NCBI RefSeq assembly: GCF_025612915.1
Contig: NC_069115.1
Span: 25,599,757 to 25,663,756 of the forward strand
DNA: 64,000 nt
From: Crassostrea angulata
Lineage: Eukaryota
Direction: 5' to 3'
Shown here: positions 3,554 through 62,530 of the stretch, in pieces
How positions within the stretch are numbered: position 1 is the stretch's first letter
Layout: each line of letters begins with the position of its first letter
Made by a program: the position numbers and the translations under genes
The notes under the pieces: generated by a model
Seen by the model: the letters and a program-made list of their open reading frames with translations, nothing else
Told to the model about the DNA's origin: nothing
The model's database searches: none

Positions 3554-4187
3554 ATTGGTTTACTGTCAGCCGAAGTCTCGAACCGGAAGGCAGAAAATGT
3601 TCATGCATTTCAATAAATATGTATTATAGAAACACGCATTAAATCTGTTTAAGTCCTCTGTGTATAAACAAAATTCTATTTAGAAATTAAACAAATAGTT
3701 TCATATATCAAAATATTCTTCCTCGTGTTCAAATGTGGAACGAGTTACGTAACTGAATGCACAGCGCCGATGACAATAAAGTTTGTGTACGAGCTCATTA
3801 ATCAATAGAAGAGGTTGATGGTGGAATCAAAATTAAATTTCCCAAACGCAATGTGCCATTTTTGAAAAGTTGTGAATTTTATTTTGGCAATCTTTCACCT
3901 TAATACTACCAAACTTCATGCGCAAGCCGAGTTTAAAATCGGGACAGGTTATACACAGATGTTTTACAAATTAAATAGGTGTTTCATTGGCTTCCAGTCT
4001 ACTTGCTATGGCTGCTGTTCGTCTCTAAAGGAATTTTGTACAAAGAAAATTTTTAAAAAAGTCTGAATTTGCCTTCTCGTTCGTTGGCTCTTTAGTTGAT
4101 TAAACTGAATTTAAATTTCAACAATGCATTGTAAGCAAAATCTATAATAGACTATACATTTTGGAAGACTTATACATTATATAAATA

Positions 4188-4310
4188 GTGCCTGTTTGGG
4201 AGGGTAACAGTTGAAATTGACACCCCGAGGAACCATTGTCAACCGACGCGAAGCGGAGGTTGACAATGGTTTTCGAGGGTTGTCAACAGTTATTCTCACA
4301 AACAGGCACT
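4188..4310. mobile_element. ~123-bp palindromic MITE-like element
   Basis: Terminal inverted repeats AGTGCCTGTTTGGGAGGGTAACAGTTGAAATTGACACCC / GGGTTGTCAACAGTTATTCTCACAAACAGGCACT. The flanks are A/T-rich (TAAAT|...|ATTTA). A partial second copy lies at 59535-59620. Confidence 0.55.
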
Positions 4311-5039
4311 ATTTATTTTATTATACTGCTTTAATATAAAAATGAAGTGAATTCCATGGCAAACCGTACGCGCATAATTTATGTTCATGTTCACTATCAG
4401 GTTCAAATTTAATGACTTATACAAGATTGATGTTGCACTTGTAGTTCTCAAAGTAAGGTTGGTCCCGTAACATTTACACGCTAATGGCGGAGTTGACAAT
4501 CTCTGTTATTTATGTCTCTGACTTTCGGAGTAGGATTTTTAATGAATGGAACGGTTGTATCGTAATTCGTGTAGGTGATGCACGAGTTTTCACAAAAAAG
4601 TGGTAAGTGGCGAACGGATTTATTTTTACCTATTAATTTTGCATGAATAGCAAATGAAGAAAATCGTATCAAATCTTTTTATTGTCAAAGTTCTTGGAAT
4701 CTTATTGTTAAAAAAAATATTTCTAATATCAGGTGCTTGTGTTTGTTATCGGTATAAAATGTTCCCTTTGTTTGTTAATTCAGCAGTTTTCGGGGTTTTC
4801 ATTAAACTTTTATTACGGATACCGTCCGACTTGTGGATTTTCCTTTGGATCACAAAATTGAACAAATCTAATGATTAATGTTATCTACTTATATAGTTGT
4901 TTGATATTCCCGGTTAGTTGTAATTTTTAAAATTTTCCTTGGTGTCTTATTTTACATAGTATACCGTTGTGTCAATTTTCTACAATTATAAAGGCCAGGA
5001 TTGAGTAAAATTTAGACGAAGTATCAGACAATTGCAAAC

Positions 5040-8042: not shown

Positions 8043-8800
8043 TCCTGTTCCGAAGGAGAGGGGGTATACTGTTTTACCCTTGTGTGTCTGTCTGTCCGTC
8101 TCTCCGCCCGTAACAAAAATTTCTGTCGCATTTATCTCAGCAACTATTAATCGCAGATGCTTGACATTTTTACAGTGTTTGTTACGGCATGCCATATCGT
8201 GAGATATATTTCTGTACCAATCCGACGTCAACTTCCTGTTAAATGACGACTTTGCTTATTTTTTAACCAAAATTTTCAAACAAATTTTCCTCAAAAATTT
8301 CTTAGCATTTATTTATCGCAGATGTTTGGAATTTTTACACAATATTTGTATAGGCAAGTCATATCGTGGGATATATTTTTGTACCAATCAGACGTCAACT
8401 TCCTGTTAAATGACGACTTTGTTTATTTTTAGCCAAATTTTTCAAATTTCCGTCAAAGATTTCTCAGCAACTATTTATCGCAGATGCTTGAAATTTTAAC
8501 ACACTATTTGTTTTGGCATGCTATATTGTGGGATATTTTTTGTATCAATTGGACGTCAACTTCCTGTTAAATGAGTACTTTGTTTTATTTTAGCCAAAAT
8601 TTTCAAACAAATTTTCCTCAAAGATTTCTCAGCAGCTATTTATCGCAGATGCTTGAAATTTTAACACACTATTTGTTTAGGCATGCCATATTGTGGGATT
8701 TATTTCTGTACCAATCGAATGCCAGCTTTCTGTTAAATGTCGACTTTGCTTATTTTGCATATTCACATCAGAGCGGGGGTATTACTAGTGAGCATTGGCT
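8043..8800. repeat. Cassette of a ~165-bp tandem repeat (about 4 units) bounded by GAGGGGGTATACTG..(GTCTGTCC)n and GCGGGGGTATTACTAGTGAGC
   Basis: The motif ATCGCAGATG recurs at about 8150, 8318, 8477 and 8646. Each unit contains CGACGTCAAC (ACGT core). The end motifs are related to those at 17395, 19866 and 22590. Confidence 0.7.
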
Positions 8801-12025: not shown

Positions 12026-13400
12026 ATTAAAGGGGAGATAATTGAGAATTATTAAAAATTTGTTGGTACTTTTCAAAAATCTTCTTCTCAAAAACTATTC
12101 TGCCTAAAAAGCTTAAACTTGTGTGGAGGCATCCTCAGGTAGTGTATATTCAAGTTTCTTCAAATCATGGTCCCCGGGGGTAGGGAGGGGCCACAAGAGG
12201 GGGATCAAGTTTCACTTAGAAATATATAGAGAAAATCTTTTAAAATCTTCTCATCAAAAACTATTAGGCCAGAAAAGCTAAAATAAAAATGGAAGCATTC
12301 TCAGGTGGTGTAGATTCAAGTTTGTTCAAATCATAGTCCCTCAGGGTATGGTGGAGCCACAATGGGGGGATCAAGTTTTACTTAGGAATATATAGAGAAA
12401 ATCTTTAAAAATCTTCTTCTCAAAAACTATCAGGCCAGAAAAGCTCAAATTAAAATGGAAGCATCCTCAGGTGGTGTAGATTCAAGTTTGTTCAAATCAT
12501 AGTCCCTGGGGTATTGTGGGGCCACAATTGGGGGGATCAAGTTTTACATAGGAATGTATAGAGAAAATCTTTAAAAAATCTTCTTCTCAAAAACTATCAG
12601 GCCAGAAAAGCTCAAATTAAAATGGAAGCATCCTCAGGTGGTGTAGATTCAAGTTTGTTCAAATCATAGTCCCTGGGGGTAGGGTGGGTACCACAATTGG
12701 GGGATAAATTTTTATACAGGAATATATAGAGAAAATCTATAAAATAATTTCTTTTAAAAACTATTTGGCCAAGAAAGCTCAAATTAGCGTGTAACTATCC
12801 TCAGATAATGTAGATTCAAGTTTGTTAAAGTCATGGTCCCTGGGGGTAGGGCGGGGCCACAATGGGGGATACATTTTTATAAATAGAAAAAATCTTTAGA
12901 AAATCTTCTTCTCAAAACTATTATGCCAGGAAAGCCCAAATTTGAGTGTAAGCATCCCCAGATCGTATAGATTCAAGTTTGTTTAAATAATAGTCCAGGA
13001 GTAGGGTGAGGCCACAATGGGGGATGAATTTTTACATAGGAATATACAGAGAAAATCTTTAAAAATCTTCTTTTTAAAGACTCTTTGGCCAGAAAAGCTT
13101 TAACTTGTGTAGAGGCATCCTCGGTTAGTGTAAAGTCAAGTTTGCAAAATCACAGTCCCTAGTGGTTAGGCGGGGCCGTGATGGCGGTTTGAATTTTTAC
13201 ATAGGAATACCCGGTATATAGAGAAAATCTTTGAAAATATTCTGGGAAAGTTTTCGGTCCAAAACTCAGTACTTAGTGTGAAAGCACAGGTTATGCAGAT
13301 TTAAGTTTGATGAAACCATAATTCCCTAGAGAAAAGTGGGGCCACGAAATGGGGGGGGGGGGGGGTATATGGGAATAGAAAACAATCTTCTTACAGGTAC
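11160..13400. repeat. G-rich ~165-bp tandem array (about 13 units) bounded by poly-G tracts
   Basis: Units read ...AATCTTCTTCTCAAAAACTATCAGGCCAGAAAAGCT..GGGGGTAGGGTGGGGCCACAATGGGGGGATC... G13 lies at 11339-11352 and G16 at 13353-13367. The ORFs 11227-11664 and 11258-11521 are artefacts of the array. Confidence 0.8.
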
Positions 13401-16439: not shown

Positions 16440-16720
16440 TTGATTTTTTAAAATTGTTTTTCGTCATGATTTTAGGTCGGTATGCTCCCCCTCTCACGCA
16501 CACACTCTTTCAAAATGCAATGTTTGCGCTAGTCTGTTGAGATGCATTCGTTCGAAATGCCAGGCATTCATGAAACACATATAGACGCAGTGAGTATTGG
16601 TATCTCACCAGGCACCGACGGTCATCAATTCAAGCAGCTATACCTTTCATGTACGATGTTTATTCAAAGACAACCATTTGAACTCAACAAAACAGACTCA
16701 TTGTATTTAAAATGATCTTC
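16440..16720 (+). repeat. Repeat family C, copy 1
   Basis: Collinear with 59890-60180 (…CACACTCTTTCAAAATGCAATGTTTGCGCTAG..GGCACCGACGGTCATCAAT…). Confidence 0.5.
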
Positions 16721-17394: not shown

Positions 17395-17402
<8 letters not shown>

Positions 17403-17500
17403 TACCCCCGCAAACGAAGTTTAGGGGGGTATATTGGTTTCACCCTGTCCGTCTGTCCGTCTGTCTGTCTGTCCGTCTGTCCGTCTGTCTGTAGACGCAA
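17395..17500. repeat. Perfect GC-palindrome TATACCCCC-GCAAACGAAGTTTAG-GGGGGTATA followed by a (GTCCGTCT)n microsatellite
   Basis: The hairpin has 9-bp stems and is read directly. About 10 GTCY repeat units follow it. The same module type bounds the cassettes at 8043, 19866 and 20488. Confidence 0.75.
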
Positions 17501-19060
17501 CATTGTCCCCCCTATAGAATTTTTTATTACTGCATGGAACAGTTTGAAAATTTGTACATATGTTGAACACCATCTGAAGATGTGCACCTGCAATTTTTTT
17601 TAAGATCAGACAAGATTTAATGATTTTATGACAGTATTCATTTTCCTTATTCTATATATTGTACACTAATGTTGAAAAGTAAGGGAGGTAATCCTTACAG
17701 ATTTTATTAATTAATTAATAGAAAACACTCTAAAATATTTTTATATAAATACATCCAGATGGATTTTTTTGTCTTTATGTCTTAATTAATAAAAAAATAA
17801 TTATTTTTTATAAGTATTCTATCAACTGACAATGCAAAGTTTTTGTTTGTCAATGATAAATTCTTAGGAGCTAATGAGAACATCAAAGACAAGTTTGGCT
17901 GAATTCATTTGTCCCAAGGGAGCCATTATCTGAGCCATGGCTCAGATGGAGCATGTGTTTAGGGGAAATTGATAATCTGTAAAATGGGTGATGGTTTTGG
18001 GGCTATTTTAAAACTGTTTCATGTAAACCAAAAGGTCTATCATTATAAGGAAATAAATAATATAATTATTAATAAAGAAGTTAAACTATTTTTAGAGGTT
18101 GTTTAAATTTATTTGTCAAGTAATTTGATGAAGTGACCCTATTGGGCATTAATTTAAATGAAATTCAAAATTACTGATATGATTGTAGTGTTTTGGCAAT
18201 TTTAAAATTGTTTGTAATATTAAATTTTCTTTTTTACATATTTTTACATAGTATGGTAATTATGGTAATGTTTTGGGAGTTTATTAAATTTAACAAGCTC
18301 ATCAAAGAAAATCATAGTCCTATGGGATCAATTTTCTGATATGGAGTTCAATTGTGCCATAGGAGAAAGTGAGGAAAATTTGAAACAACTAATTGCATCT
18401 GTCAAGACTCTTATTAGAAAGATATTGAAAGTTTTATCAACAGAAGAGCATTGCTTGGCTACCAGTATTTCTATTCACTGCAAAGGGAGGGGTTATTGTC
18501 ATTTTGTTGGTTTTTCTTTAAATCAATTAAATAAAAAAAATATATCATCAAATACATACATTTGTAAATGTATTACTGTTATAGATATGTATTTACAGTG
18601 AAATTCTGACAATTTTGATTTTAATTTTTCTTTGTTAACTATTTTTTTTTTTTTTACAATTCTAGAATTTTTTTTTTGGTATGTGTTCCAAACCTTAATT
18701 ATTATTCAATTCAATTATTTGTCCCATTTGAAATTAGCCTAGCGGGGGTATTAGTCCCATTAGGACAGTTCTAGTTATAATTATTATTTTCATTAATATT
18801 TGAATACAACAAATTAAAACATGAGTACAAAATCCCACTGAGTAAAGATTCTTCTGTCCGTTTTACGAAATCACCAATTTTCAGGTCAGGGGCTAATAAT
18901 ACAAATTGTTTTTCAGATGAGAATTTATTTCGATTTTTAAAGTAGCCTCAAAATTTCTGAGCATAGAAATATTTTTAAAAATTTTTACCTAATAAGTTTA
19001 CATAAAAGATAAGGTGTTATTAGATATACTTTTGAATGAGGTCTATATTTCTCTTTTTTT

Positions 19061-26287: not shown

Positions 26288-27393
26288 GGGAGTTGATTTT
26301 AATCAACTCTCCTATGCAGTTAATCAGACAAACCGAAAGTGAAACAGTGTTTGGACCTCAGCACAAATCATCACTGCTGACAAGACTTAGTTCTTGAAAA
26401 TGATTGATGAATTCGATGTAATGTATGCTAAAGCATTGTTTTTCAAGGAAACTTATTTATAAATACCTTGAAAATAGTCAGATTTTAAATGGTACAATGT
26501 ACGAATAATTTAAATATTTTTTGTAGTCGTATGTATTCCTACGCCAGAGTTCAATATAGCCTCGTTCAAGGTATCACACCGGTAATCGGCCAATCAAAAT
26601 GAACTTGTCAATTGTAGTTCCATATATACTTCAGAATTATTTTTTTCCTTGACTGCATTTTTACATTTTCCTTTACTCAGTTATAAAAAATTGTGTACCA
26701 CTGAGTAGGATATTTCATGTATTTTGTTAGGTGATGATCTTTTTTCACAGGGACTACTTCTTTCAGGGCACATGCAGCAGCTTCCTGGGGAGTGTGCAGT
26801 CTGTTTAAATACAAATGGAAAACACGTGGTTTTGAGGGTAGACCTGTTTGGAGCTAGATATTTTGAGAAAACGCAGGTTCGCTTGCCCTTTTTATGGTGT
26901 TAGCTGATGAGATAGGTAACAAATAACATTTCCTCCGAATATTTTGTCATGAGGAATACAAACTGATTTTTAAGAATGTTTTCCCCTCTATAGTGCTATA
27001 TAGTGAAAACAATTACCGGTGTGATACCTTCAACTGGACGCTAGGCTGTCTCCGTAAATGCTTGTCGGAGATTTACGGTGTCAGCCGAGCGTTTGGTTGA
27101 ACGAGACTAGAGTTCAATATTGCTTGGATCCATACAATTTTTTAGAAATATTTTGTATTACTAATACATAGTTTGATTGAATTAATTTTACTCTAACTAT
27201 TATTTAACATGATTCATATAGGGGGTTCTCGACATTCTTGTCGAAAAAGTCCAAAAATTCATATTATAAAAATGTGCGTATTTCAAATACAAATTAGAAA
27301 CTACATGTACTTGTCAAGCAAAATAACATATCATTGATTTTAAGATAAACAAACATCGACAAAATCAACTCCCGTCAGTTCTTCAGTACTTTG
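26288..27393. mobile_element. MITE copy A (TIR GGGAGTTGATTTT / AAAATCAACTCCC) inserted into R1 copy 3
   Basis: The TIRs were read directly. A second copy at 58426-59057 shares the ends and the internal 37-bp hairpin module. The ends are marked out by comparison with the R1 copy that lacks this element (10860-10900). Confidence 0.65.
26570..27028. mobile_element. Second-order nested MITE (TIR GGTATCACACCGGTAATCGG / ATTACCGGTGTGATACC) with a TTCAA target-site duplication
   Basis: This segment is absent from MITE copy B. It is flanked by TTCAA on both sides (26565-69 and 27029-33). It splits the hairpin module of MITE A. Confidence 0.6.
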
Positions 27394-29822
27394 ATTATTA
27401 TTAATGCTTTGTAACCAGGGAACTATTGCCTTTGTTTTGTAATATTTACGTATCAAATTAAACAGAGACCTCGGTAATTCAGACAGTTGACTGTTTACCT
27501 GCGCACATTTAGCAAAATCGGATGTATAACAAAGTACTAAAATACAGTTCATTCTATCGATAATTCGGTATGATCTTTTGCGTAATGGTTGATTAATACA
27601 ATGTGTTTTTTAGATGCTCGGCATTTTCTTGAGTTTATACAGTTTAAATAGAGTTTAATATCGCTGACGGTAATATGTAGTATAGATATATGATCCATTT
27701 TGAAAAATAAATTGTGCTCTTTATTTGTTATAGTGCATGTTTCTTATGTTTAATTGTTTACAATTTCTATTTACTAACCATATTTGACTGTCAAGCTTCG
27801 AATTATAAGCAAGTTACAGAGCTTTGCTCACAATTGTAGTTTGTACACAGATCTGAGGCAATCTTTTGTTTCCATTTTTAATGCTGAATAGGAAATACCC
27901 AAGTTAAAAATCTTCAGCTGAATGTAATAAACTCATGTGAACAAAATATGACTCAAACCTAGCAGAATCGTGAGCTCTGTATCTTGCTAATAATTCTACG
28001 ATTTACGCCGAAATTGTTGATCATTAGAAATGTCTAGCTAGACGTTGAATACTTGTACAAAAATTTAAAAGATGATATGCTGTAACTACTCCCTGGGGGC
28101 TCCACTTTATACAATGAATAATATGAAATCTACATCAATTTTGATAGTTTTTTAGACACGAGTAAATAAAAACGTCACCGTTAAAACAGTTTCCATCGTT
28201 CTTGTACATTTCTGTTGCGGGGATAAAGGAATAATCGCTATTCCTAAGAAAATATTCAACGGAAAATTATCCTGGTTTGTAGCCATTTGTTATTTTTGAA
28301 TAAAGATGAAAATAATGGTTGGGCCTTAATAAGATAGAGTGATATGCCTGCCAATACAGTGATTTTTATAGCTCTTTAGAACGAAATATAGGGATTTGGA
28401 AGTTAACAGTGTACCCCTACCAAATGTTTAGTTTTATATCTTCCGTAGGTTTTTCTTATTCTCGGTAAAAATAGTATTCCATAAAGGTACAATGTCAAAA
28501 ATTATGTGTTGGCAAAAAATTTCGATACTTAACAATATTTAATTTTTGTTATTCTATCGAGGGTCAAATAACACAATATCTTTTTAACGCCCATTTAAAG
28601 TCATTGTTGCTCAGGTAAGCGATGTGGCCCCATGGACCTCTTGTTTATAAAATGAAATGTTGACACGTCCGACAATAGTCTTTGAACCTTGGGCTAGTAA
28701 CTTTGTTAAATTTGTAATTGCACACCCCAGGCGTTTGTTTTTTTTTATATTTAAAGCTGACATGAATTAATAAATATGTCACGGTGTGAAATTCAGTCTT
28801 TCGGACTGTTTTTAATTATTGTGTAAATTTTAACTTTTTTTCGGACTTTGTGTTAATTGTTACAAAAACTTTCCCTCTATTTCAGCAACTGTTTTAAAAA
28901 CGTTTCAAATTCCACGTAGCCTTAATCCCACCTGAGGCAGAATCGGTGATGGACAGCTAATCTTTTAATTGACTTCTATTTATGTTTATTGACACTTCTT
29001 TCATCTTATTAATCCTTTTATATAATTATGTATATGCTGCTAAAATGTCATGAATTACTCAATAGCTGTTCTTTAATTGATTTTCTTACTTCTGTACATA
29101 TTATGTTAATCCTTCATTGTGTTATTCCATTTGTCATTATATATAATTCTGAATTGTAAAATATGGTCAGTTGGAATCAACCTTCGGTACTGATGCATAC
29201 CAAACTCACGTAAATGTATATTTCATGTAAAGTCTATATAAAAGTCTGAAAACTAAAATGCGTGTTGGCTTGTTGGAGGTTTCGTGAGGCTGGGTCCAAC
29301 AACAAGAGAATAAACACAAGGTTGACCCAGTACTACATGTAGTCCTGTACGGGAGAGAGAATCCCGTAATAAATGCAAATAATGTCCCTTTTATCTCCGT
29401 ATACCGCCATATTAGTTGTCGATTTCTTTTGTCCTGCTCATCGCTACACACCCCCTATATAAGGCAGAGAGCGTTATCATGCTTTAACTCATTCAGAAAT
29501 TTCATACATCCGAACACGTTACCTTGGACGATAAGACGTGTAGACACGAGTTTTTTACAAAAATAACATGACAACCACTGCACTGGCAAGATATATCCAA
29601 TAAACGACGAAACAAAACAGACTGAAATCCAGGTGCAAATACTTCAAAAATACCATGATATTCATTATGTTCCAATTCGAACAATCTCAAACGAACATAA
29701 AATATTTACTACCTTATTCAATCATAACAACACAAAGACTAGCGCATTTCGAATGTAACAAATTAAAGAAAGGGGAAAAAGAAAAATTATGAACTATATT
29801 TGTTTTTACTTTATATAGATAA

Positions 29823-53821: not shown

Positions 53822-55335
53822 TACCGGTGTCATATAATATTTTGAACCCCGCGATATATTGAACCCGGGTTCAAAATATCGCTGCGATATATTGAACCCC
53901 CCCCCCTCCCCATAAAATATTGAACCCGGGTTCAATATTTTATGGCCGCGATATTTTGAAACCCTCCCCTCTATTTTCATTGCTTTTGGAGAGGGGGTTC
54001 AAAATGTTATGGCTGCGAGATATTGAACCCCCTACCTATTTCTAATTCCCATTGGAGAGGGGGTTCAAAATATTATGGCCGCGATGTATTGAACCCCCTA
54101 CCTTTTTCCAATTCCCATTGGAGAGGGGGTTCAAAATATTATGGCCGCGATATTTTGAACCCCCCTCTTTTTTCATTGGTATTGGAGAGGGGGTTCAAAA
54201 TATTATGGCCGCGATATTTTGACCCCCCCCCCTCTCTATTTTCATTGCTTTTGGAGAGGGGGTTCAAAATATTATGGGCGCGATATTTTGAACCCCCTAC
54301 CTCTTTCCAATTCCCATTGGAGAGGGGGTTCAAAATATTATGACCGCGATATTTTGAACCCCCCTCTATTTGTCATTGCTATTGGAGAGGGGGTTCAAAA
54401 TATTATGGCAGCAATATATTGAACCCCCTACCTATTTCCAATTCCCATTAGAGAGGGGGTTCAAAATATAATGGCCGCTATATTTTGAACCCCCCTCTAT
54501 TTTTCATTGCTACTGGAGAGGGGGTTCAAAATATTATGGCTGCGATATATTGAACCCCCAACCTATTTCCAATTCCCATTGGAGAGGGGGTTCAAAATAT
54601 TATGGCCGCGATATTTTGAACCCCCCTCTATTTCTCATTGCTATTGGAGAGGGGGTTCAAAATATTATGGCTGCGATATATTGAACCCCCAACCTATTTC
54701 CAATTCCCATTGGAAGGGGGTTCAAAATATTATGGCCGCGATATTTTGAACCCCCCCCCCCTTTATTTTTTATTGCTTTTGGAGAGGGGGTTCAAAATGT
54801 ATAATGGCTGCGATATATTGAACCCCCTAACTCTATGTGTATTTCTAATTCCCATTGGAGAAGGGGTTCAAAATATTATGGCCGCGATATTTTGAACCCC
54901 CCTCTATTTTTCATTGCTATTGGAGAGGGGGTTCAAAATATTATGGCTGCGATATATTGAACCCCAACCTATTTCCAATTCCCTTTGGAGAGGGGGTTCA
55001 AAATATCGCGGCCATAATATTTTGAACCCCTTCTCCAAATGGAATTGGAAATAAGTAGGGGGTTCAATATATCGCAGTCATAATATTTTGAACCCCTTCT
55101 CTAATAGCAATAGAAAATAGAGGGGGGTTCAAAATATCGCAGCCATAATATTCTGAACCCCCTCTCCAAAGGGAATTGGAAATAAGTAGGGGGTTCGATA
55201 TTTTAGGGGGGGGGGGGTTCAATATATCGCAGCGATTTTTTGAACCCGGGTTCATAATATCGCATAATATATTGAACCCGGGTTCAATATTTCGCAGTAT
55301 CAAAATATTATATGACACCGGGTTAACCCGGCACC
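53822..55335. repeat. Foldback satellite: 65-bp monomers in a 131-bp higher-order A/B repeat (about 10 copies, direct) followed by a short inverted arm (55010-55335); monomers contain an internal 12-bp inverted repeat
   Basis: Monomer GGTTCAAAATAT-TATGGCCGCG-ATATTTTGAACC.... The outer ends CCGGTGTCATATAATATTTTGAACC (53825) and GGTTCAATATTTCGCAGTATCAAAATATTATATGACACCGG (55320) are inverted. The ORFs 54023-55436 are artefacts. Confidence 0.8.
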
Positions 55336-55339
55336 TGGT

Positions 55340-55445
55340 GAACTTAGTCTCGTTCAACCAGACGCTCGGCTGTCTCCGTAAAACTCCGACGAGCAGAGAG
55401 TCGGAGATTTACGGAGACAGCCGAGCGTCTGGTTGAACGAGACTA
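55340..55445. repeat. Standalone perfect hairpin module (37-bp stems AGTCTCGTTCAACCAGACGCTCGGCTGTCTCCGTAAA, palindromic loop)
   Basis: Read directly. Diverged copies of the same module are internal to MITE A (27030-27110) and MITE B (58680-58800). Confidence 0.8.
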
Positions 55446-57386
55446 CTGGTGAACTCGGCACCGAGAATAGTGAACTCGGCAGCCGGTTAACTCGGCATCT
55501 GGTGAATTCGGCATTTGTATATTATTCATTTATCTCTTTGTTTCTCATTCTAGACACACATTTTTGAAAAAATTGAATTTGTTACACAATGTACGACTGC
55601 ACCTTTATCATGGAAATGTCTGTTTATGAAGAAAGGTGAGTTTTTCAATGTAACTTATTACTTACGACCACATTTATCAACAGATACGAAATAATTCACT
55701 AGCTACTGGCTTAACATATATTTTGAATTGAATGAATTGATATAATTTATGTAAGAATTTATCTTTCTATGAAAATTTTATGAACATTTGCACATTTGGT
55801 TGTTATCGGTCCAGTCTAGTTTCATCTTGGCGAGATGATCTTCACATTCATCAATGAGCATATCAGAGGCGCTCCCCCAGCTAATTACGGAGAAAATAGG
55901 CCTAGTTAAAAGATGAATTGAGACAATTAATCCATATAACCATATTATTGCTAAATGTAGTAAAAATACTTACAATAATTACTATAGGCAGAAATAATTA
56001 AAGGAGACGGATTGAATATCAGAAATGATTAGTTTGTGGTTTTTAAATTATTTTCTTATCATGTTCTTAAGGTATCCCACTCCTCAATCTTCTTGTATCA
56101 AGAACTTCTTGAGAAGTATTCTATTGAAATCTGTAGACAAAACACACTTAAATAATACAAAGATAATGGGAGGTCAGTGTTCATCCCTCTGAGTTATGGT
56201 CAAATAAATTTGACCTTTTTGCACCTAAAATGCGATTTCAGCCTGATTAGGATTTGTTTCAGAATTTTCGATTAAGCAAACTCTTTTTTTTTTAAATGTT
56301 GCTTTTAATTATGTACAATGGTCACACTGAATAGAGGGATTACGAAAAAAAAAATTGCATGAACTGCATAAATGTTTGTATGACCTTTTTGCACTTAAAA
56401 TAGACAATTTTTATAATAGTTTTGAATATCAAGAATTTTAGAAGATTAATCCAGTTTGCCTACATATGTATTCAGTATCATTTTGACATAATAAAACATG
56501 GGGGTCAGTGATTTCAAATTTTAGATACATGGCTTCAAAGGTAAAATTATTGCAAAATTTGGCTTCAAAAAATTTAGACATTTTCTATATATTTGCATGA
56601 TTTTATGCTAAACGTCTACCACTCTCTCAAAATTTAGTTTAGTACAAGTCATAGAGAACCTATAGAACATGTCACAAACCTATCAAATGTTAAAAATGAG
56701 AATAATGAATAAAGTATTATAAAAAGAAAAGTATATTGAAAATTCATAAAATTGCTTGTTTCTGTCATTTTCGACTTAAAAACCTTCCGCACGAGAAAAT
56801 AGTTCCCCCCAAAACTTGTTCGTTTCTTGAATTCAAATGGATTTTCTTTACGAATGTTGTGTAATTATGAAATGATGATCTTTTTGTGAGGTTTAAATTA
56901 ATAAAATCATATTCATTTAAAATATAATGAACATCTGCGCAATGAAATCAAAACATGAGGAGTGATATACCTTAATTTCTTGCATTGTAGTATGTTTACT
57001 ACATTTTGTTTACCATTAAGGAGCAACTTTTTCACTTGCCACTGAAATTATTGATACTGTGTGAACTAAATTGCTTGTAGTTGTATTCAATTATTTACTC
57101 ATTTTGTAATTTTGTCTAAATTAAATTTAATTCATTAAAATCCTTTCAAGAACAACAACGATTATTATATTCTTAGCTACATCCACCTTTTTATTCATTA
57201 TGAATTTTAAACATAGGCAAAAAAATCTTTAACATGATACAACCAGTTTTTTGCATTATGTTTTTCGACTCAGTCATAAAGTGTTTAGTAGCAATGTTGA
57301 ATAATACAATTATTATGGTACAGTATTTTTTTTTACCAGAACTTAACTATATTGAACATTCTTTGGTACAGCAGAGGACAGCGTCC

Positions 57387-57602
57387 TTATTCAAGTTGAC
57401 CTTTTAACTCCCAAGATATGTTTACAAAAATCAAGATGAAGTTTCTCAATATATTAGGTGCTTTGAATGAACCCCATACCTCAGAAGCATAGTTAATGAC
57501 ACTGCCAACAAAGCAATCAAACAATGATAGCAAAGTATTATGATTAAGAAACATGTTTCTAATATTTTTTTTCAATACAAATAATGCCTTCCTACCTTGC
57601 AA
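57387..57602 (-). pseudogene. Non-LTR retrotransposon reverse-transcriptase C-terminal fragment
   Basis: The ORF contains ...TLLSLFDCFVGSVINYASEVWGSFKAPNILRNF.. This resembles the C-terminal 'LY.S.VRP.LEYAS.VW' motif of jockey/CR1/RTE-like ORF2 proteins. No upstream RT domains are present. Confidence 0.35.
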
Positions 57603-57719
57603 ACATACTTAATAAATAAATAATAACAAATAACAAACATACTTATTTTTACATTACAAGATGCACAATTTACGAAGGGGGACACAAGTGTCACGATATC
57701 AATATGAATCACATGTTCA

Positions 57720-58222
57720 AAGTTGGTGGTCCATAAATGGCAGCACGGCCCTTTAACAGTTCACTCGTGCTGATCGATCTTTCACAGTAGTCGTTCCAGA
57801 GCTTGAAGACATGACCTTCCACCTGTAAGGTCCTCTACCTTTGGAATCTCTGCATCTTCCCTTCAGACACCATCTTCATCTGCACTGTGATGTTGGTCGC
57901 TTCCCTGTGCAGAACAAGAAGAAGATGGTAGAAGGGAACCAATCCCCTGGTGGCAACACTGGTGTTTAGGCGGTTGTGCTATCCCTCCACATCATTGTTC
58001 ATCCGGATGGAAGTCATGAACACACTCCAGTGATCGATCTTGAAGACTGAAGAACGGATCCACGTCCTGTAAACAAAGTCCATCACTGGAGCAAGAACCT
58101 CTGGTGCACGACCATCCAGACGTAGGAAGGTCTCCTCAATGTGCTCAGGTGGGAGGATCAAATGGCAGGGCCAGGAGTTGGCGCACGAACTTGTAGACTG
58201 AGTGCTTCTTGTTATAGGCAGT
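57720..58222 (-). pseudogene. IS4EU/ISL2EU-like DDE transposase, 3' exon; the invariant W of the EGWH motif is replaced by a stop
   Basis: Acceptor TTCTTACAG|ACT. Encoded: ..LAPVMDFVYRTWIRSSVFKIDHWSVFMTSIRMNNDVEG*HNRLN..HLLLVLHREATNIT... This matches ...Y..TWIG...W.VY...RTNN.VEGWH..LN. The TAG at 57979-57981 sits where TGG is expected. Confidence 0.6.
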
Positions 58223-58425
58223 CTGTAAGAAATAAACATGTATGAGTATTTGTACCTTGAATAAAAATACTAGTACCATTTAATTCATTCATGGACAACA
58301 GCATTGCCATACCAAATTGCTAAAAACCAATTGCTTACATATTAAACCTAATAAATGCTATTTGTGCTGATAACAAATTTGTCTCAGTATATTTTCATTT
58401 TGCAAAGAAATACTGATTTTTTATT

Positions 58426-59057
58426 GGGAGTTGATTTTAATCAACTCTCCTATGCAGTTACTCTGGCAAACCGAAAGTGAAACAGTGTCTGGACCTATAA
58501 GCACAAGACTTAGTTCTTGAAAATAATAGAAAAGTTCAAAGTAATGTATGCTGAACCATTGTTTTTTAAGGAAACTTATCAATAAAACACTTTGAAAAAA
58601 GTCAGATTTTATATAATACGAAAAACTAAGATATTTTTATAGTCTCGTGTATTCCTACGCCAGAGTTAAATATAGCCTCGTTAAACCAAACGCTCGGCTG
58701 TCTCCGTAAATCTACGAGAAGCAGAAAGGCTCTCTTGCTTGTCGGAGATTAACGGAGACAGCCGAGAGTCTGGTTGAACGCGACTAGAGTTCGATATCAA
58801 TAGTGCTTGGATCCCTAACATTTTTAGAATTGCTTTAATTACTTATACATAGTTTGAAATCTATCTTTAAATATTGCACATGATTCATATGAGGTTTCTC
58901 GAAATTCTTGTCAGAAAAGTCTAAAATTCATTTAATAAAAAACTGTGTAATTCAAATACAGACTAGAAACTAATTGTCATGCAAGATAAGCTGATTTTAA
59001 AATAAATGATCATCGATAAAATCAACTCCCGTCAGTACTTCAGTACTTTGATTATTG
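58426..59057. mobile_element. MITE copy B (same family as 26288-27393) inside the transposase intron
   Basis: TIRs GGGAGTTGATTTTAATCAACTCTCC ... AAAATCAACTCCCGTCAGTACTTCAGTACTTTGATTATT. An internal hairpin module lies at 58680-58800. Confidence 0.65.
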
Positions 59058-59171
59058 ATGTATAGAAATCAAACAATATAACGTTTAATTTATGTTGATA
59101 AATACTGAATTATTAACTAAGTTTTACCAGTAGGAAATATTGCATTCAAGTGCATTAGAATTTACATTTAC

Positions 59172-59350
59172 CTGAAGTCCGTGCTCCTGGACTTTCCTAA
59201 CACCACCTGTGTCCAGTGGAACACACAGCCTTGGATGGGTGTTCCAGGGAACCGGTCCTTTAAGGCCTTCCACAGGGCTACTTCAAAATCTGCAATAAAT
59301 CCCTCCAAAGCAATGCTTTCTGGGAGTTGATGGTCAATGAACCGCAGCAC
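59172..59350 (-). pseudogene. IS4EU/ISL2EU-like DDE transposase, upstream exon (..FIADFEVALWKALKDRFPGTPIQGCVFHWTQVV..)
   Basis: Acceptor TGTTACAG|GTG and donor TTCAG|GTAAATGT. It contains the DFE...FP...GC.FH..Q signature of this transposase superfamily. The phase (ends on AG) matches the downstream exon starting with A. Confidence 0.6.
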
Positions 59351-59534
59351 CTGTAACATGCAACAAATATATATAGCCTCAACTTATAAGGTGTGTATAT
59401 AATTATATTGTGTATTGTTATAGAAGAAATACATATTGTCATCTTTATCAGCCTTGGTGGGAACTTTGCATAGCTCTATCCAGATTAAAGAGCATCGTAA
59501 ATATTGGTTTTGCAAAAGGTACAATCAGAGACAT

Positions 59535-59620
59535 TACCTGGTAGTAATCCGCGTCGGTTGACAATGGTTTTCTCAGGGTGTCAATTTCCACTGTTATCCT
59601 CCCAAACAGGCACTATATAT
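59535..59620. mobile_element. Partial copy (one arm) of the 123-bp palindromic MITE seen at 4188-4310
   Basis: CGCGTCGGTTGACAATGGTTTTCTCAGGGTGTCAATTTCCACTGTTATCCTCCCAAACAGGCACTAT matches the right half of 4188-4310. Confidence 0.45.
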
Positions 59621-59889
59621 ATATTGCTTAATTATTACATGTATTTGTTACGATATAAAAAAAAAAGAAGAAAGTTTTGGCGATTTTACCAACAAACTTA
59701 CTGAATACTTTTTTACAAAGGTGAAATTTCGCTATGTTTGCAATTTATCAAATTCCAAAGTTCCTAATATTGTGAAATAAAATATATTGTGGTTGGTAAT
59801 TTTTCACAATTTGTCTAGGTAACAGATCATATACAGAGGGTTCCGCTGAGGGTTTTCAGATAGAAAATGTGTGAAATGATTGTTTTAGT

Positions 59890-60180
59890 TTATTGTTTTT
59901 CGTCTTGATTTTCGGTTGGTCGGCCTGCTCTTCTAACCCCCCCCCCCCCCCGCACACTCTTTCAAAATACGATGTTTGCGCTAGCCTGTAGAGATGCATT
60001 CGTTCGAAATGCCATGCTTTCATGAAAAAAAATATGTATGTACACGCAGTGGGTATTGGTATCTTACCAGGCACCGACGGTCATCAATCAGGCAGCTGTA
60101 CCTGTCATGCAGGATGTTTGATCGACGACAATCATTTAAATATCTCAACAAAACAGATTTGTTGTATAAAATAGATACCG
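59890..60180 (+). repeat. Repeat family C, copy 2 (begins after a C16 tract)
   Basis: Collinear with 16440-16720. Confidence 0.5.
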
Positions 60181-61196
60181 GTATTATAGGGTTAATAGGA
60201 ATGACAGCATTGAAAATAGAGCTCAGTGCTTTTAAATGTAGATTTCATCGAAATTTGCAATTGAATTTGTCTTTGGTTTAAAATAAGAGATCCCTTTTCT
60301 TTTAAGTCTTTTAGGAGACAGCTTAAACAATTTTTTGTTTTACAATTAGAACCATTATAACACGAGCTTGGGTTTTCGGTAGGAGGTGACTATCTTGTTT
60401 GCGCAGCAAAACAAGCTGTCAAATACTGACATCGCTGATAGAACTAGCTACTCAATATTCATAAACTGACGAAACCTTCAACGCTTTTTTAAGTAATCAA
60501 AATTTTATTCCACATTCATTTCTACTTGGAAAATACAAAACAAAACAAAATAAACTCGGAAAAGGTACAGACTCCCGTATTTAGATCATAATTTATCTTT
60601 TCTTCGGTGGAAGGCACTGTGGAGATTCTAAAATTAAAAAAAAACAAGTCTTTAGTAAATTTATACGACTGAGATCTTTCATAGGCGTTAGTAAATAAGA
60701 AGTGTAGATTCCTGTGTTGATTTAGCGAAAAAATAAATTAGAGAATTGCCAGACCGTTGATTTAATAAAAAAATTGACTGATTGCTGTATTTAATAACCG
60801 GTTCTGACTGGTTTGATTTTGATCTAGCTGCAGGTCTGTAGCACCCAGTCTGAAAAAATAGGATGCATGACCTAGGAGGTAGTTTTTACGTGTTAAAAAC
60901 TTATAATTTACGGAGCACATAAACTTTCTATGATTTACCTTATTTTTACGCGAATTCTGTGAAAACAAAATAGCATCATTAAATTCTTCAAACAATTTAC
61001 TACAATTTATTACAATTTATTACAATTTTGAAACGAATTAATACACGGAATGTGTACGAAAATAAGATTAATCACATAATTATACCAAATTTTTGTGCGC
61101 CATATTAAATTGCAAGTTTTTAACACATAAGAAACTGTCAGAGGCGAGCGCCCAGGTTGTTCATCCGAATTTTGTCAGACCAGGAGCTATAAACCA

Positions 61197-61218
61197 TCTC
61201 TCTCTCTCTCTCTCTCTT
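61197..61218. repeat. (CT)n microsatellite
   Basis: CTCTCT... run, read on the minus strand as GAGAGA (the ERERER tail of the ORF). Confidence 0.85.
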
Positions 61219-61266
61219 GCAAACAGCAAACGTAAATTTTACAAAGATCTAAATTAAGTGTCTTAC

Positions 61267-61606
61267 CAGATAATCGCGGGAATTTCACTGCCATTAGCGA
61301 GTTGTATTCCAGTAGTCTCCCCGCTGGATTTGTTGAAGTACTCGCTATGGGAGATTGGGGGGCGTTGGCTTTGTCGTATCCTGCTATAATGTTTTCGAAT
61401 AGGGTGGATACTATTTCCAACTCCGCGGGGACTTTTCCTTTAAAATGCTTCTCAAGCTTTGCTAAATCAACGTTAACTGCAGCCGATTTAGGAATCACCC
61501 ATTCTGCCGTTGGTATAAGATATTTATTTTTGTTGCCATTTATGAGGTGTGTTCTTACTCTTTGTAAAAAGGACTGGGATGCACTGTTTTTCGCTTTTAG
61601 TCTCAT
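61267..61606 (-). CDS. Probable downstream coding exon of the same gene (ends at strong donor G|GTAAGA at 61267)
   Basis: A long open frame directly 3' of the first ORF, in a different frame. It is compatible with a short intron (candidate donor AG|GTATTG near 61824; the acceptor is uncertain). Read-through beyond 61267 runs into the (GA)n microsatellite. Confidence 0.25.
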
Positions 61607-61716
61607 TTCATATTCGTCTCTTTTATGTGACAATTCATTCACGTTCAAGCTTTTTTAGAGTATCGGCAGCGGAATCCACAATCAATTTTTGATCGGGATG
61701 TTTAATTGTTCAAATC

Positions 61717-62415
61717 TCAACATTGTTCAGAGGTAACGCATTTGTCGATTCGACATTGTCGAATATTGTGATCCAGTCGCAAATGACAGTTCGAGCACTG
61801 TTTCCATCGGCCCTGAACAACTGCACAATACCTATCCGTGAGTTCTGTCAGGCGCTCCTTGGCAGACTGGACTTGTACCCCCAACTGGTTCATTTCCTCC
61901 TCAATGTATTGAAGGGAATAATCAAGGGGGGATTTATATTCGAAGAAGTCAAACATACTTGCTTCAGAATCTTGTGACAATGTTGGGAAATCCAAGCCTT
62001 TTCTCGCTTGCGGTCCCGGATCTTGCTCAACATTTACGCACTTAGATTTAGACCTGTCGTCCGATATTCCAACTTTGTTTCCGGCTGGCGAAGAACCCTC
62101 AGTTACTTTAAGATTAACAACAGCGCGATCACAAATCTGAATTGATCTTACTTGTCGAATGAATTTCTTGAAATTGGTTTCCATCATATCAATAAAGTCA
62201 TTTTCATCATCCTTGTACATGATGCGCAAGACCGGCATCCGTCCCAGGTATCTTATCTGTGACTGAATAAGTCCTTCCAGGCCAACATACCCAAGGGATA
62301 GTAGTTCACGCAATGAAACTCCAATCATGGTGCATCTTTTTTCTCCGTAATAGTCGTAATGTATCTTAAAATCAATCTCTCGGTAATCATCGGACACAAT
62401 TTTTGATGACGACAT
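61717..62415 (-). CDS. Candidate host gene: protein with an N-terminal PB1-like domain (first coding exon, ATG at 62415-62413)
   Basis: MSSSKIVSDDYREIDFKIHYDYYGEKRCTMIGVSLRELL...VLRIMYKDDENDFIDMMETNFKKFI fits the PB1 pattern (conserved Lys in the first strand plus the acidic YKDEDGD-like OPCA motif). No repeat copies of this region occur elsewhere in the window. A C-x2-C-x5-H-x4-C segment lies near the C-terminus. Confidence 0.4.
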   Translation of the reverse strand: MSSSKIVSDDYREIDFKIHYDYYGEKRCTMIGVSLRELLSLGYVGLEGLIQSQIRYLGRMPVLRIMYKDDENDFIDMMETNFKKFIRQVRSIQICDRAVVNLKVTEGSSPAGNKVGISDDRSKSKCVNVEQDPGPQARKGLDFPTLSQDSEASMFDFFEYKSPLDYSLQYIEEEMNQLGVQVQSAKERLTELTDRYCAVVQGRWKQCSNCHLRLDHNIRQCRIDKCVTSEQC

Positions 62416-62494
62416 TTTCAATCTTGACTGATCTCCAGGACCGATCGAAATGTTTTGCGCGCTAAAAGTTCGTTGAAGTTACGCGCTTGATATC

Positions 62495-62530
62495 ACCAAC
62501 CAATCAAATTTCTCTTGATATATACACGAG
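62495..62530 (-). promoter_or_regulatory. Possible core promoter elements (TATATAT and an inverted CCAAT/ATTGG box) upstream of the PB1-domain gene
   Basis: Minus strand: CGTGTATATATCAAGAGAAATTTGATTGGTTGG lies about 80-110 nt 5' of the ATG. Motif-level evidence only. Confidence 0.15.

What the first reader, a model, noticed from the sequence alone, without database searches (positions are those of the whole stretch)
57720..59350. Spliced IS4EU/ISL2EU-like DDE transposase gene killed by a single W-to-stop change in the EGWH motif, with a MITE in its intron
Two exons with canonical acceptor and donor sites and matching phase encode the hallmark DFE..FP..GC.FH..Q and Y..TWI...W...RTNN.VEG(W)H..LN blocks. 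The only obvious lesion in the conserved core is TAG at 57979-57981 in place of the invariant TGG. On the plus strand this is a C-to-T transition, CCA to CTA. A second stop lies further 3'. The 949-bp intron carries a 632-bp MITE (58426-59057), and a partial 123-bp MITE sits just upstream. This looks like a recently inactivated, intron-bearing transposase, possibly a domesticated copy.
Basis: partly seen in the sequence, partly recalled or inferred. Interest (0 to 1): 0.6.

Follow-up and report, generated by a model that had tools for sequence, protein, structure and literature searches.

The report
Dead Mutator-like transposase relic in oyster
This is a broken, front-truncated leftover of a Mutator-like (FLYWCH-MULE) transposon gene in a Pacific-oyster-type genome; it appears to be still transcribed and spliced, but it has at least five disabling mutations, so it is ordinary transposon debris and not a gene killed by one mutation.

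Summary
The described sequence is real. Two minus-strand coding blocks (59350-59172 and 58222-57709) are separated by a 949-bp GT..AG intron that holds a ~628-bp MITE-like insertion. TAG replaces a nearly invariant Trp at 57979-57981, and a second TAG lies at 57835-57837. A 1001-nt intron-less public contig shows both introns removed exactly as predicted.

- **Family:** it is MULE/Mutator (Pfam PF10551). Full-length relatives are 500-650-aa FLYWCH+MULE proteins. It is not IS4EU/ISL2EU/Harbinger.
- **Extent:** the copy covers only residues ~406-630 of a 633-aa relative. The zinc finger and the first catalytic Asp are absent from the whole 64-kb window.
- **Lesions:** besides W-to-stop there is a 1-bp deletion (~59200) and a compensating 4-bp insertion (58158-58161) that scramble 34 codons. 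There is also Thr-to-Met inside RTNNDVEGWH, and Lys-to-stop.
- **Age:** a ~90%-identical paralog on another chromosome shares the same 2.2-kb truncated unit and has an empty site for the MITE. Non-synonymous divergence (5.8%) matches non-coding divergence (6.2%), as expected for neutral decay.

The locus is already annotated: RefSeq XP_065928484.1 (an earlier model of the same locus is LOC105345513) and UniProt A0A8W8JDP0, "MULE transposase domain-containing protein". It is ordinary and of low interest.

The parts
59538..59550 (-). Last 13 nt (..DYYQ) of the upstream MULE exon. This is the 5' limit of MULE homology in the window.
   Evidence: Homology to paralog L002 stops at 59550. The sequence GGATTACTACCAG|GT is shared with L002 and L003.
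59551..59639 (.). Half copy of a 146-bp palindromic MITE (full copy at 4176-4321). Positions 59551-59614 are exonised in the transcript.
   Evidence: blastn 59550-59639 against 4250-4162 gives 86.7% identity. Inverted-repeat structure of the full copy. Transcript exon 59614-59536.
59351..59537 (-). Intron 1 (187 bp, GT..AG) at the YYQ|VLRF junction.
   Evidence: Removed in contig L005. The same position is an intron in L002 and L003.
59172..59350 (-). Exon A. It encodes VLRFID..DFE..GCVFHW, holding the second catalytic Asp (59290-59288) and the CxxH motif (Cys 59227-59225, His 59218-59216).
   Evidence: Pfam MULE positions 67-97 of 99. tblastn with homologs.
59199..59202 (-). 1-bp deletion (frameshift 1) in the AVFRKVQ codons.
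   Evidence: DNA alignment to L002 and L003.
58223..59171 (-). Intron 2 (949 bp, GT..AG) at the GLQ|TAY junction. It is an ancestral intron of ~320 bp plus a nested insertion.
   Evidence: Removed in L005. The same position is an intron in L002 (~321 bp), L003 (~151 bp) and full-length P0171.
58426..59053 (.). MITE-like non-autonomous insertion of ~628 bp. It has 14-nt perfect inverted repeats at 58426-58439 and 59017-59030. The right inverted repeat is subterminal.
   Evidence: Empty site in paralog L002. Other copies at 26288-27399 and L001 3114-3717. Inverted repeat I2.
58668..58791 (.). Palindromic ~120-bp element nested in the MITE (56-nt arms, 82% complementary). A second copy lies at 55340-55445.
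   Evidence: Only sub-threshold miRNA-like Rfam hits.
57709..58222 (-). Exon B, the ancestral last coding exon through the original TGA (57711-57709). It holds the RTNNDVEGWH motif, with the catalytic Glu codon at 57987-57985.
58158..58161 (-). 4-bp insertion (TTGA; frameshift 2) that restores the frame lost at ~59200.
   Evidence: DNA alignment to L002 and L003.
58000..58002 (-). ACG to ATG (Thr to Met) in the nearly invariant RTNN motif.
57979..57981 (-). TGG to TAG (Trp to stop) in EGWH. This is the end of the annotated CDS.
   Evidence: P0016, P0018 and P0183 all end in ..NNDVEG.
57835..57837 (-). AAG to TAG (Lys to stop) in QRKRTLQ.
55482..57708 (-). 3' non-coding part of the MULE-derived unit shared with paralog L002. 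Window-specific insertions interrupt it at 57219-57644 and 56071-56969. It ends next to short TGCCGAGTTCACCAG repeats.

Best explanation
The finding is the 3' third of a Mutator-like (MULE) transposase gene of the metazoan FLYWCH-MULE type, lying on the minus strand of a Magallana (Crassostrea) gigas/angulata chromosome.

Shown:
- The ancestral element encoded a transposase of roughly 600 aa: a FLYWCH zinc finger, then a DDE core with a CxxH motif and the RTNNDVEGWH block. The gene had introns, two of which survive here.
- This copy is a 2.2-kb truncated unit (59550 down to 55482) that lost everything upstream of ..DYYQ, including the zinc finger and the first catalytic Asp.
- It then accumulated a 1-bp deletion, a compensating 4-bp insertion, Thr to Met, Trp to stop and Lys to stop.
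- It also took three nested insertions: a ~628-bp MITE-like element in intron 2 and two more in the 3' flank.
- A public intron-less contig starts in other MULE debris ~9 kb upstream and passes through an exon made from half of a palindromic MITE. It is spliced at the two ancestral MULE introns and reads through the stop codons.

Inferred:
- The locus cannot make an active transposase. It evolves neutrally.
- Its 206-214-aa ORF is an accident of transposon debris, not a functional gene.
For: - **Family.** PF10551 MULE is the only Pfam hit of the fragment. It scores 31-49 bits (cut-off 27.6) in the complete and longer relatives, which also carry FLYWCH. The spacing from the second Asp to the CxxH His is 24 residues, as in Muta1 D283/H307 (PMC5225508).
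- **Extent.** The fragment aligns to residues 406-630 of the 633-aa P0171 (54% identity, E = 1e-87). 73 relatives of at least 450 aa hit the window only between ~57600 and 59400.
- **Lesions.**
- **Paralog.** The shared 2.2-kb unit is ~90% identical and has an empty MITE site.
- **Introns.** Positions are conserved, and the spliced contig L005 (SRR6150959_1870) maps at 99.3-100%.
- **Neutral decay.** dN = 0.058 against 6.2% non-coding divergence (85 of 1368 sites), both versus L002. Against C. virginica dN/dS is 0.08, so the constraint dates from the active-element phase.
- **Other dead copies.** Other M. gigas copies are also dead: P0010, P0012 and P0017 have Glu to Gly at the catalytic Glu, and P0056, P0064, P0043 and P0006 contain frameshifted stretches.
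- **Existing annotation.** XP_065928484.1, XP_034331478.1 (LOC105345513) and UniProt A0A8W8JDP0 'MULE transposase domain-containing protein'.
Against: - dN/dS between the window copy and L002 is 0.45 (17 synonymous and 28 non-synonymous differences; Fisher p = 0.015). Taken alone this would suggest some constraint. I attribute it to fast synonymous or CpG sites, or to divergence before decay.
- The locus appears to be transcribed and spliced, and the out-of-frame stretch stays open for 34 codons.
- No TIRs or target-site duplications of the MULE could be defined, because the 5' end is lost and no convincing TIR was found around the full-length C. virginica copy. Transposon status therefore rests on multicopy distribution and protein family.
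- No Repbase consensus was available for direct comparison.
Confidence: 0.9

Rival explanations
1. One reading: an IS4EU/ISL2EU (PIF/Harbinger-related, PHIS superfamily) transposase gene, recently inactivated by a single Trp-to-stop mutation.
For: It is a DDE-type transposase relic with a stop at a conserved Trp. The intronic MITE starts with GG, as ISL2EU TIRs often do (PMC4482050), but that concerns the MITE and not the gene.
Against: - No PHIS-type Pfam family (DDE_Tnp_4, Plant_tran, IS4-type DDE) is hit by the fragment or by 11 relatives at E <= 0.1. MULE is above threshold in 10 of the 11 relatives scanned (23.2 bits in the internally deleted P0014), and the only weak secondary hits are Transposase_mut, DDE_Tnp_ISL3 and ZSWIM RNaseH-like.
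- Relatives carry FLYWCH, not the THAP/HTH domains described for ISL2EU.
- There are four further lesions and a 5' truncation.
- ~10% divergence from a paralog that shares the truncation argues against recent inactivation.
Confidence: 0.01
2. A domesticated or newly born chimeric gene. The spliced transcript would encode a 206-214-aa protein made of upstream exons, a MITE-derived exon and a truncated MULE core. The host would use it, for example as a DNA-binding or transposase-inhibiting factor.
For: - An intron-less, cDNA-like contig has exactly these exons.
- RefSeq models exist in M. gigas and C. angulata with the same 214-aa ORF.
- The ORF stays open through the 34 shifted codons.
- dN/dS against the paralog is 0.45.
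Against: - The product lacks the zinc finger and the first Asp, and it has 34 scrambled residues in the middle of the core.
- dN equals non-coding divergence.
- RefSeq and Ensembl/UniProt models disagree on all 5' exons. Those 5' exons are themselves repeat-derived.
- M. gigas and C. angulata are too close (~1% divergence) for shared ORF integrity to mean anything.
- Many sibling copies are equally decayed.
Confidence: 0.06
3. The intron-less contig comes from a processed retrocopy elsewhere in the genome and not from RNA. In that case the locus would be silent debris, and the splice sites only appear to be in use.
For: The library type of SRR6150959 could not be checked here. Logan assembles DNA runs as well as RNA runs.
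Against: The contig is 99.3-100% identical to the window exons. The RefSeq models use the same exon chain. This rival would not change the identity of the relic.
Confidence: 0.03

Closest known systems
Metazoan FLYWCH-MULE transposases (Mutator superfamily), for example Crassostrea virginica LOC144622949 (P0171, 633 aa) and LOC111132122 (P0169). The MULE-Cg, MULE-Mollusca and Phantom groups of Dupeyron et al. 2019 (PMC6446971) are the published mollusc and FLYWCH-bearing groups.
   Same: 54% identity over residues 406-630. Same DFE / GCxFHW / RTNNDVEGWH motifs. Same intron at GLQ|xAY. Same Pfam family.
   Different: The window copy lacks residues ~1-405 (FLYWCH and the first Asp), carries five lesions and three nested insertions, and has no definable termini.
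Muta1 of Aedes aegypti, an experimentally active MULE (PMC5225508)
   Same: DDE core with a CxxH motif 24 residues after the second Asp and a conserved Trp ahead of the Glu. Both are intron-containing transposase genes with an N-terminal zinc finger.
   Different: Muta1 is intact, has long TIRs and makes 8-9-bp target-site duplications. None of these features can be shown here. Sequence similarity to Muta1 itself was not measured.
ISL2EU (IS4EU) of the PHIS superfamily (PMC4482050)
   Same: Both are eukaryotic cut-and-paste DDE transposons that can be multi-exonic.
   Different: ISL2EU has a Harbinger-like DDE with THAP/HTH domains, a second ORF with a YqaJ exonuclease domain, AT target-site duplications and GG-initiated TIRs. 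The window family has a MULE core with FLYWCH and no PHIS profile match.
Sibling relic in the same genome: XP_065935337.1 (P0001) on chromosome OY970745.1 (L002)
   Same: The same 2.2-kb 5'-truncated unit at ~90% identity, with the same two introns.
   Different: L002 keeps TGG, keeps the reading frame, has an empty site where the window has the MITE, and lacks the two 3'-flank insertions. It has its own lesions (Arg to Trp in RTNN and a C-terminal deletion).

Membership tests
MULE / Mutator superfamily transposase | The catalytic core matches the Pfam MULE domain (PF10551) above its gathering score. | tested here: met
   The fragment alone scores 20-21 bits (cut-off 27.6), because only model positions 67-97 of 99 survive. 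Relatives at 34-74% identity in alignment A1 score 31.5-48.9 bits over positions 2-98, and the FLYWCH-bearing full-length proteins (P0171 is 54% identical to the fragment) score 36-45 bits. Precomputed PF10551 is present for most of the 120 listed relatives.
MULE / Mutator superfamily transposase | A complete DDE triad. | tested here: not met
   The second Asp (DFE, 59290-59288) and the Glu codon (57987-57985) are present. The first Asp (WYxDGTF in relatives) is absent from the entire window. The copy is therefore a relic of the family, not a functional member.
MULE / Mutator superfamily transposase | A CxxH motif after the second Asp and a conserved Trp between the second Asp and the Glu. | tested here: met
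   GCVFHW has its His 24 residues after the Asp, as in Muta1 D283/H307. TWI and HWSVF tryptophans lie ahead of the Glu.
MULE / Mutator superfamily transposase | [quoted passage not shown] | tested here: not met
   FLYWCH (PF04500) is present in full-length relatives. No N-terminal homology exists anywhere in the window.
MULE / Mutator superfamily transposase | Terminal inverted repeats and 8-10-bp target-site duplications. | not testable with these tools
   The 5' end is lost at 59550 and the 3' boundary (~55482) is defined only against one paralog. No convincing TIR was found around the full-length C. virginica copy. This needs a whole-genome copy alignment.
ISL2EU / IS4EU (PHIS superfamily) | The transposase aligns with the PIF/Harbinger-type DDE core (criterion E < 1e-4 over the catalytic region, PMC4482050). 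| tested here: not met
   No DDE_Tnp_4, Plant_tran or IS4-type family appears at E <= 0.1-1 for the fragment or for 11 relatives.
ISL2EU / IS4EU (PHIS superfamily) | THAP/HTH domains in the transposase and a second ORF with a YqaJ exonuclease domain. | tested here: not met
   Full-length relatives carry FLYWCH (and in one case a sub-threshold PHD match) and no THAP. A YqaJ ORF was not searched for specifically in the window.
ISL2EU / IS4EU (PHIS superfamily) | 5'-AT-3' target-site duplications and TIRs that begin with GG. | not testable with these tools
   The element termini are not recoverable (see above).
MITE (the intronic insertion 58426-59053) | Short, non-coding, multicopy, with terminal inverted repeats, and an insertion polymorphism against an empty site. 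| tested here: met
   ~628 bp with no ORF over 53 aa. 14-nt perfect inverted repeats. At least three copies in ~95 kb examined. Empty site in L002. Caveat: the right inverted repeat is 23 nt inside the right end.
MITE (the intronic insertion 58426-59053) | A clear target-site duplication that identifies the superfamily. | tested here: inconclusive
   The candidates ATT, or AATAA on the other strand, lie in low-complexity A/T runs and are not reproduced at the other two copies.

The most novel reading that the evidence does not exclude
The spliced transcript from this locus might encode a young, lineage-specific chimeric protein of 206-214 aa. It would combine exons from neighbouring MULE debris, a MITE-derived exon and a truncated MULE core lacking the first Asp, and would have been retained in M. 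gigas and M. angulata. One possible role is a transposase-derived regulator or inhibitor of related MULEs. That would make it a snapshot of gene birth from nested transposons.
Probability: 0.05. Interest if true: 0.4.

Novelty: already known. Interest (0 to 1): 0.1.

Why it matters
It matters little biologically. MULEs, MITEs and their decayed copies are abundant and well described in bivalve genomes, and this locus already has public gene models, one of them labelled as containing a MULE domain.

Its value is as a cautionary example:
- Two compensating frameshifts keep an ORF open across an intron, so both a sequence-only reader and the annotation pipelines treat a pseudogene as a nearly intact gene.
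- The DFE / GCxFHxxQ / RTNNxVEGWH motifs identify MULE transposases, not ISL2EU.
- A transposon relic can keep its ancestral splice sites in use and can pick up a MITE-derived exon.

Tried and rejected
- **PDB sequence searches.** The fragment gave only chance hits with E >= 0.26. The family profile A1 gave nothing at E <= 1.
- **Rfam scan of 55000-62500 at E <= 1.** Only hairpin-like miRNA matches far below gathering scores appeared on the palindromic repeats. Rejected as RNA genes.
- **TIR search around the full-length C. virginica copy L004.** It found only weak AT-rich or poly-G/C pairs, so no termini could be defined.
- **Search for N-terminal MULE exons in the window.** tblastn at E <= 10 with 64 homologs and at E <= 0.01 with 73 relatives of at least 450 aa found nothing outside ~57600-59400.
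- **C. angulata ortholog locus.** The look-up for P0183 was not on record, so I could not decide whether the window is M. gigas or M. angulata.
- **Possible reverse-transcriptase ORF.** A Pfam scan of the ORF at 57387-57602 returned no family. One attempt with raw DNA references failed on stop codons.
- **Upstream exons of the UniProt model (61268-62220).** There was no Pfam hit. Homologs occur only in oysters, are multicopy, and sit in unrelated contexts. I rejected them as genuine 5' exons of the transposase.
- **Considered and rejected for the intronic repeat.** Helitron (no 5'-TC or CTRR-3' ends), Spy (the flanks are not AAA|TTT) and ISL2EU MITE (the flanks are not AT).
Full report
**1. 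What is in the sequence**

All features below are on the minus strand.

- An exon runs from 59350 to 59172. It is preceded by ..gttacag and followed by gtaaatg.
- A second exon starts at 58222, after ..tcttacag.
- The interval between them, 59171-58223, is 949 bp.
- Exon A reads VLRFIDHQLPESIALEGFIADFEVALWKALKDRFPGTPIQGCVFHWTQ...
- Exon B contains ...YRTWIRSSVFKIDHWSVFMTSIRMNNDVEG*. The TAG is at 57981-57979.
- A further TAG lies at 57837-57835, and the original TGA is at 57711-57709.
- The window is AT-rich eukaryotic DNA, about 33% GC.

**2. Source and existing annotation**

- The corrected translation finds mollusc proteins at E values down to 2e-121.
- The Magallana gigas protein P0018 is UniProt A0A8W8JDP0, "MULE transposase domain-containing protein". 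It maps to the window at about 100% identity as five minus-strand exons: 62220-61831, 61564-61268, about 59606-59538, 59350-59172 and 58222-57982.
- RefSeq XP_065928484.1 (P0016) shares the last three exons but uses different 5' exons. So does its C. angulata counterpart XP_052710857.1. The older, shorter model XP_034331478.1 (LOC105345513, 143 aa) covers only the last two exons.
- The P0016 locus (L001) is on M. gigas chromosome OY970753.1, between a major-vault-protein gene and RPL24. It is 98.9-99.4% identical to the window.
- One residue (CHLILPP) matches the C. angulata model and not the M. gigas reference. The window is therefore from M. gigas or its sister M. angulata.

**3. Family**

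- The fragment's only Pfam match is the C-terminal end of PF10551 MULE: positions 67-97 of 99, 20-21 bits, below the 27.6-bit cut-off.
- Relatives that keep the whole domain score 31-49 bits.
- A search with one such relative returns hundreds of metazoan proteins of 500-650 aa with FLYWCH zinc finger plus MULE architecture.
- No Harbinger/PHIS or IS4-type family appears, even at permissive thresholds. The only weak secondary hits are Transposase_mut (IS256/Mutator), DDE_Tnp_ISL3 and the ZSWIM RNaseH-like domain.
- The motif logic fits published MULE features: a DDE triad, a CxxH motif after the second Asp and a conserved Trp before the Glu (PMC5225508). Here the His of GCVFHW is 24 residues after the Asp of DFE, as in Muta1 (D283/H307).
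- ISL2EU is defined by a Harbinger-like DDE with THAP/HTH domains, a YqaJ second ORF, AT target-site duplications and GG-initiated TIRs (PMC4482050). None of these is seen.
- MULE groups from molluscs, and FLYWCH-bearing groups such as Phantom, are already catalogued (PMC6446971).

**4. How much of the gene is present**

- The fragment aligns to residues 406-630 of the 633-aa C. virginica protein P0171 (54% identity, E = 1e-87).
- In P0171 the FLYWCH domain is at residues 176-235 and the MULE domain at 356-452.
- 73 relatives of at least 450 aa hit the window only between about 57600 and 59400. A permissive tblastn found nothing else either.
- The zinc finger and the first catalytic Asp (WYxDGTF) are therefore missing.
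- MULE homology begins at 59550 with GGATTACTACCAG (..DYYQ). Immediately upstream is half of a 146-bp palindromic MITE, whose full copy sits at 4176-4321.

**5. Lesions**

I aligned the window DNA with a paralog (L002, the gene for XP_065935337.1 on chromosome OY970745.1) and with a C. virginica homolog (L003). The differences are listed below.

| Position | Change | Effect |
|---|---|---|
| ~59199-59202 | 1-bp deletion | Frameshift in AVFRKVQ |
| 58161-58158 | 4-bp insertion (TTGA) | Restores the frame |
| 58002-58000 | ACG to ATG | Thr to Met in RTNN |
| 57981-57979 | TGG to TAG | Trp to stop in EGWH |
| 57837-57835 | AAG to TAG | Lys to stop |

- The two indels sum to +3.
- In that frame, 34 residues (VVLGKSRSTDFRLPITRSTQSTSSCANSWPCHLI) replace the ancestral AVFRKVQEHGLQTAYNKKHSVYKFVRQLLALPF.
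- In a 37-sequence alignment, R, T, N, N, D, V, E, G, W and H of RTNNDVEGWH are each at least 90% conserved. The Trp claim holds, but the Thr-to-Met change also hits the core.

**6. Introns and transcription**

- The junctions YYQ|VLRF and GLQ|TAY are also introns in L002 (intron 2 is about 321 bp) and in L003 (introns of 100 and 151 bp).
- The GLQ|RAY junction is an intron in full-length P0171. The introns are therefore ancestral to this oyster MULE lineage.
- A Logan contig, SRR6150959_1870 (L005, 1001 nt), has no introns. It maps to 59614-59536, 59353-59172 and 58225-57646 at 99.3-100% identity. Two further exons lie beyond the window end, at L001 10439-10486 and 10912-11036.
- This contig is most simply a spliced mRNA. 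I could not verify the library type.
- Its first in-window exon, 59614-59538, is the half-MITE plus 13 nt of MULE.

**7. Nested insertions and age**

- The window and L002 share one unit: window 59550 to 55482, matching L002 10581 to 12756 (2.2 kb) at about 90% identity.
- The window has three extra blocks:
  - 58426 to about 59053;
  - 57219-57644, against 113 bp in L002;
  - 56071-56969.
  - L002 has the uninterrupted site ...GATTTTTTATT|TTTGATGTATAG.
  - The element has perfect 14-nt inverted repeats.
  - Further copies lie at 26288-27399 and at L001 3114-3717.
  - A 120-bp palindrome is nested inside it at 58668-58791, with a second copy at 55340-55445.
  - Its target-site duplication is ambiguous.
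- Subtracting about 628 bp from the 949-bp intron leaves about 320 bp, which matches L002.
- Divergence between the window and L002:
  - dN = 0.058 and dS = 0.129, giving a ratio of 0.45 (Fisher p = 0.015);
  - introns and 3' flank differ at 85 of 1368 sites (6.2%), essentially equal to dN.
- Against C. virginica the dN/dS ratio is 0.08. Constraint acted while the element was active, and the copies have since drifted.
- Other M. gigas and C. angulata copies are likewise broken. P0010, P0012 and P0017 have Glu to Gly at the catalytic Glu, and several others contain frameshifted stretches.

**8. Mechanism**

- Established knowledge: an intact FLYWCH-MULE transposase binds the element ends through its zinc finger and cuts and pastes with the DDE core.
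- Shown here: this copy lacks the zinc finger and the first Asp, has a scrambled core, and terminates one residue after the Glu.
- Inferred: it is catalytically dead. It persists as neutrally evolving debris whose old splice signals are still recognised in read-through or chimeric transcripts.
- The alternative is a functional chimeric protein. I give it about 5-6%.
  - In favour are only transcription and an open frame.
  - Against it are the disagreement between the gene models, and 5' exons that are themselves repeat-derived: the P0018 N-terminus has only multicopy, oyster-specific relatives.

**9. Verdict**

- It is wrong on three points: the superfamily, the claim of a single lesion, and the claim of recent inactivation.
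- The feature is ordinary and already annotated, so interest is low.

Noticed in passing
window 53928-55196: A minisatellite with a 65/131-bp period (about 16 and 8 copies respectively). Each unit contains a palindrome (GGGTTCAAAATATT..AATATTTTGAACCC). It lies about 300 bp beyond the 3' end of the MULE-derived unit and gives the local GC peak of 0.40. Minisatellites after MULE ORFs are mentioned for Phantom and Rehavkus, but paralog L002 has no such array at the equivalent place.
   Followed up: partly
window 4176-4321 and 59551-59639: A 146-bp palindromic MITE (39-nt outer arms and 19-nt inner arms). A half copy is fused to the truncated MULE exon and serves as a coding exon (..CLFGRITVEIDTLRKPLSTDA..) in the RefSeq models and in contig L005.
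   Followed up: yes
window 58668-58791 and 55340-55445: A ~115-120-bp palindromic element nested inside the intronic MITE and present again near the 3' boundary of the MULE unit. It gives only sub-threshold miRNA-like Rfam hits (34.5 bits against a gathering score of 75).
   Followed up: partly
window 57219-57644 (ORF 57387-57602, minus strand): A window-specific insertion in the 3' flank. Its 71-aa ORF (..LFDCFVGSVINYASEVWG..) reminds me of the C-terminal region of non-LTR retrotransposon reverse transcriptases. That is recollection only; Pfam found nothing.
   Followed up: partly
window 61268-62220 (minus strand): Two long open exons that form the first 227 aa of UniProt A0A8W8JDP0. They have no Pfam domain. 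Homologs occur only in oysters, are multicopy (one cluster has 74 members), and in one case are fused to an SRCR protein. This is probably another repeat-borne ORF wrongly joined to the MULE relic.
   Followed up: partly
L001 10248-11521 (about 9 kb beyond the window's 64000 end, same strand as the relic): A cluster of further partial MULE copies. The first two exons of the spliced transcript and RefSeq model (L001 10439-10486 and 10912-11036) arise inside this cluster.
   Followed up: partly
window 8135-8756 and 12075-13099: Tandem arrays with 165-166-bp periods. The first is related to a long array in L002 (3409-7583) and the second to L002 12866-13096. These are common oyster satellites or transposon-borne repeats.
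   Followed up: no
window 17396-18417; window 59892-60172 and 16453-16713: Other dispersed repeats. The first is 92% identical to L002 8652-9666 and also matches L001. The second pair are 78.5% identical within the window.
   Followed up: no
P0010, P0012, P0017 (other M. gigas paralogs): These copies read NNDVGGWH. The catalytic Glu is replaced by Gly while the Trp is intact, so they were inactivated independently. They also share a different upstream exon (MRRLMKRPCQHMGF..).
   Followed up: no
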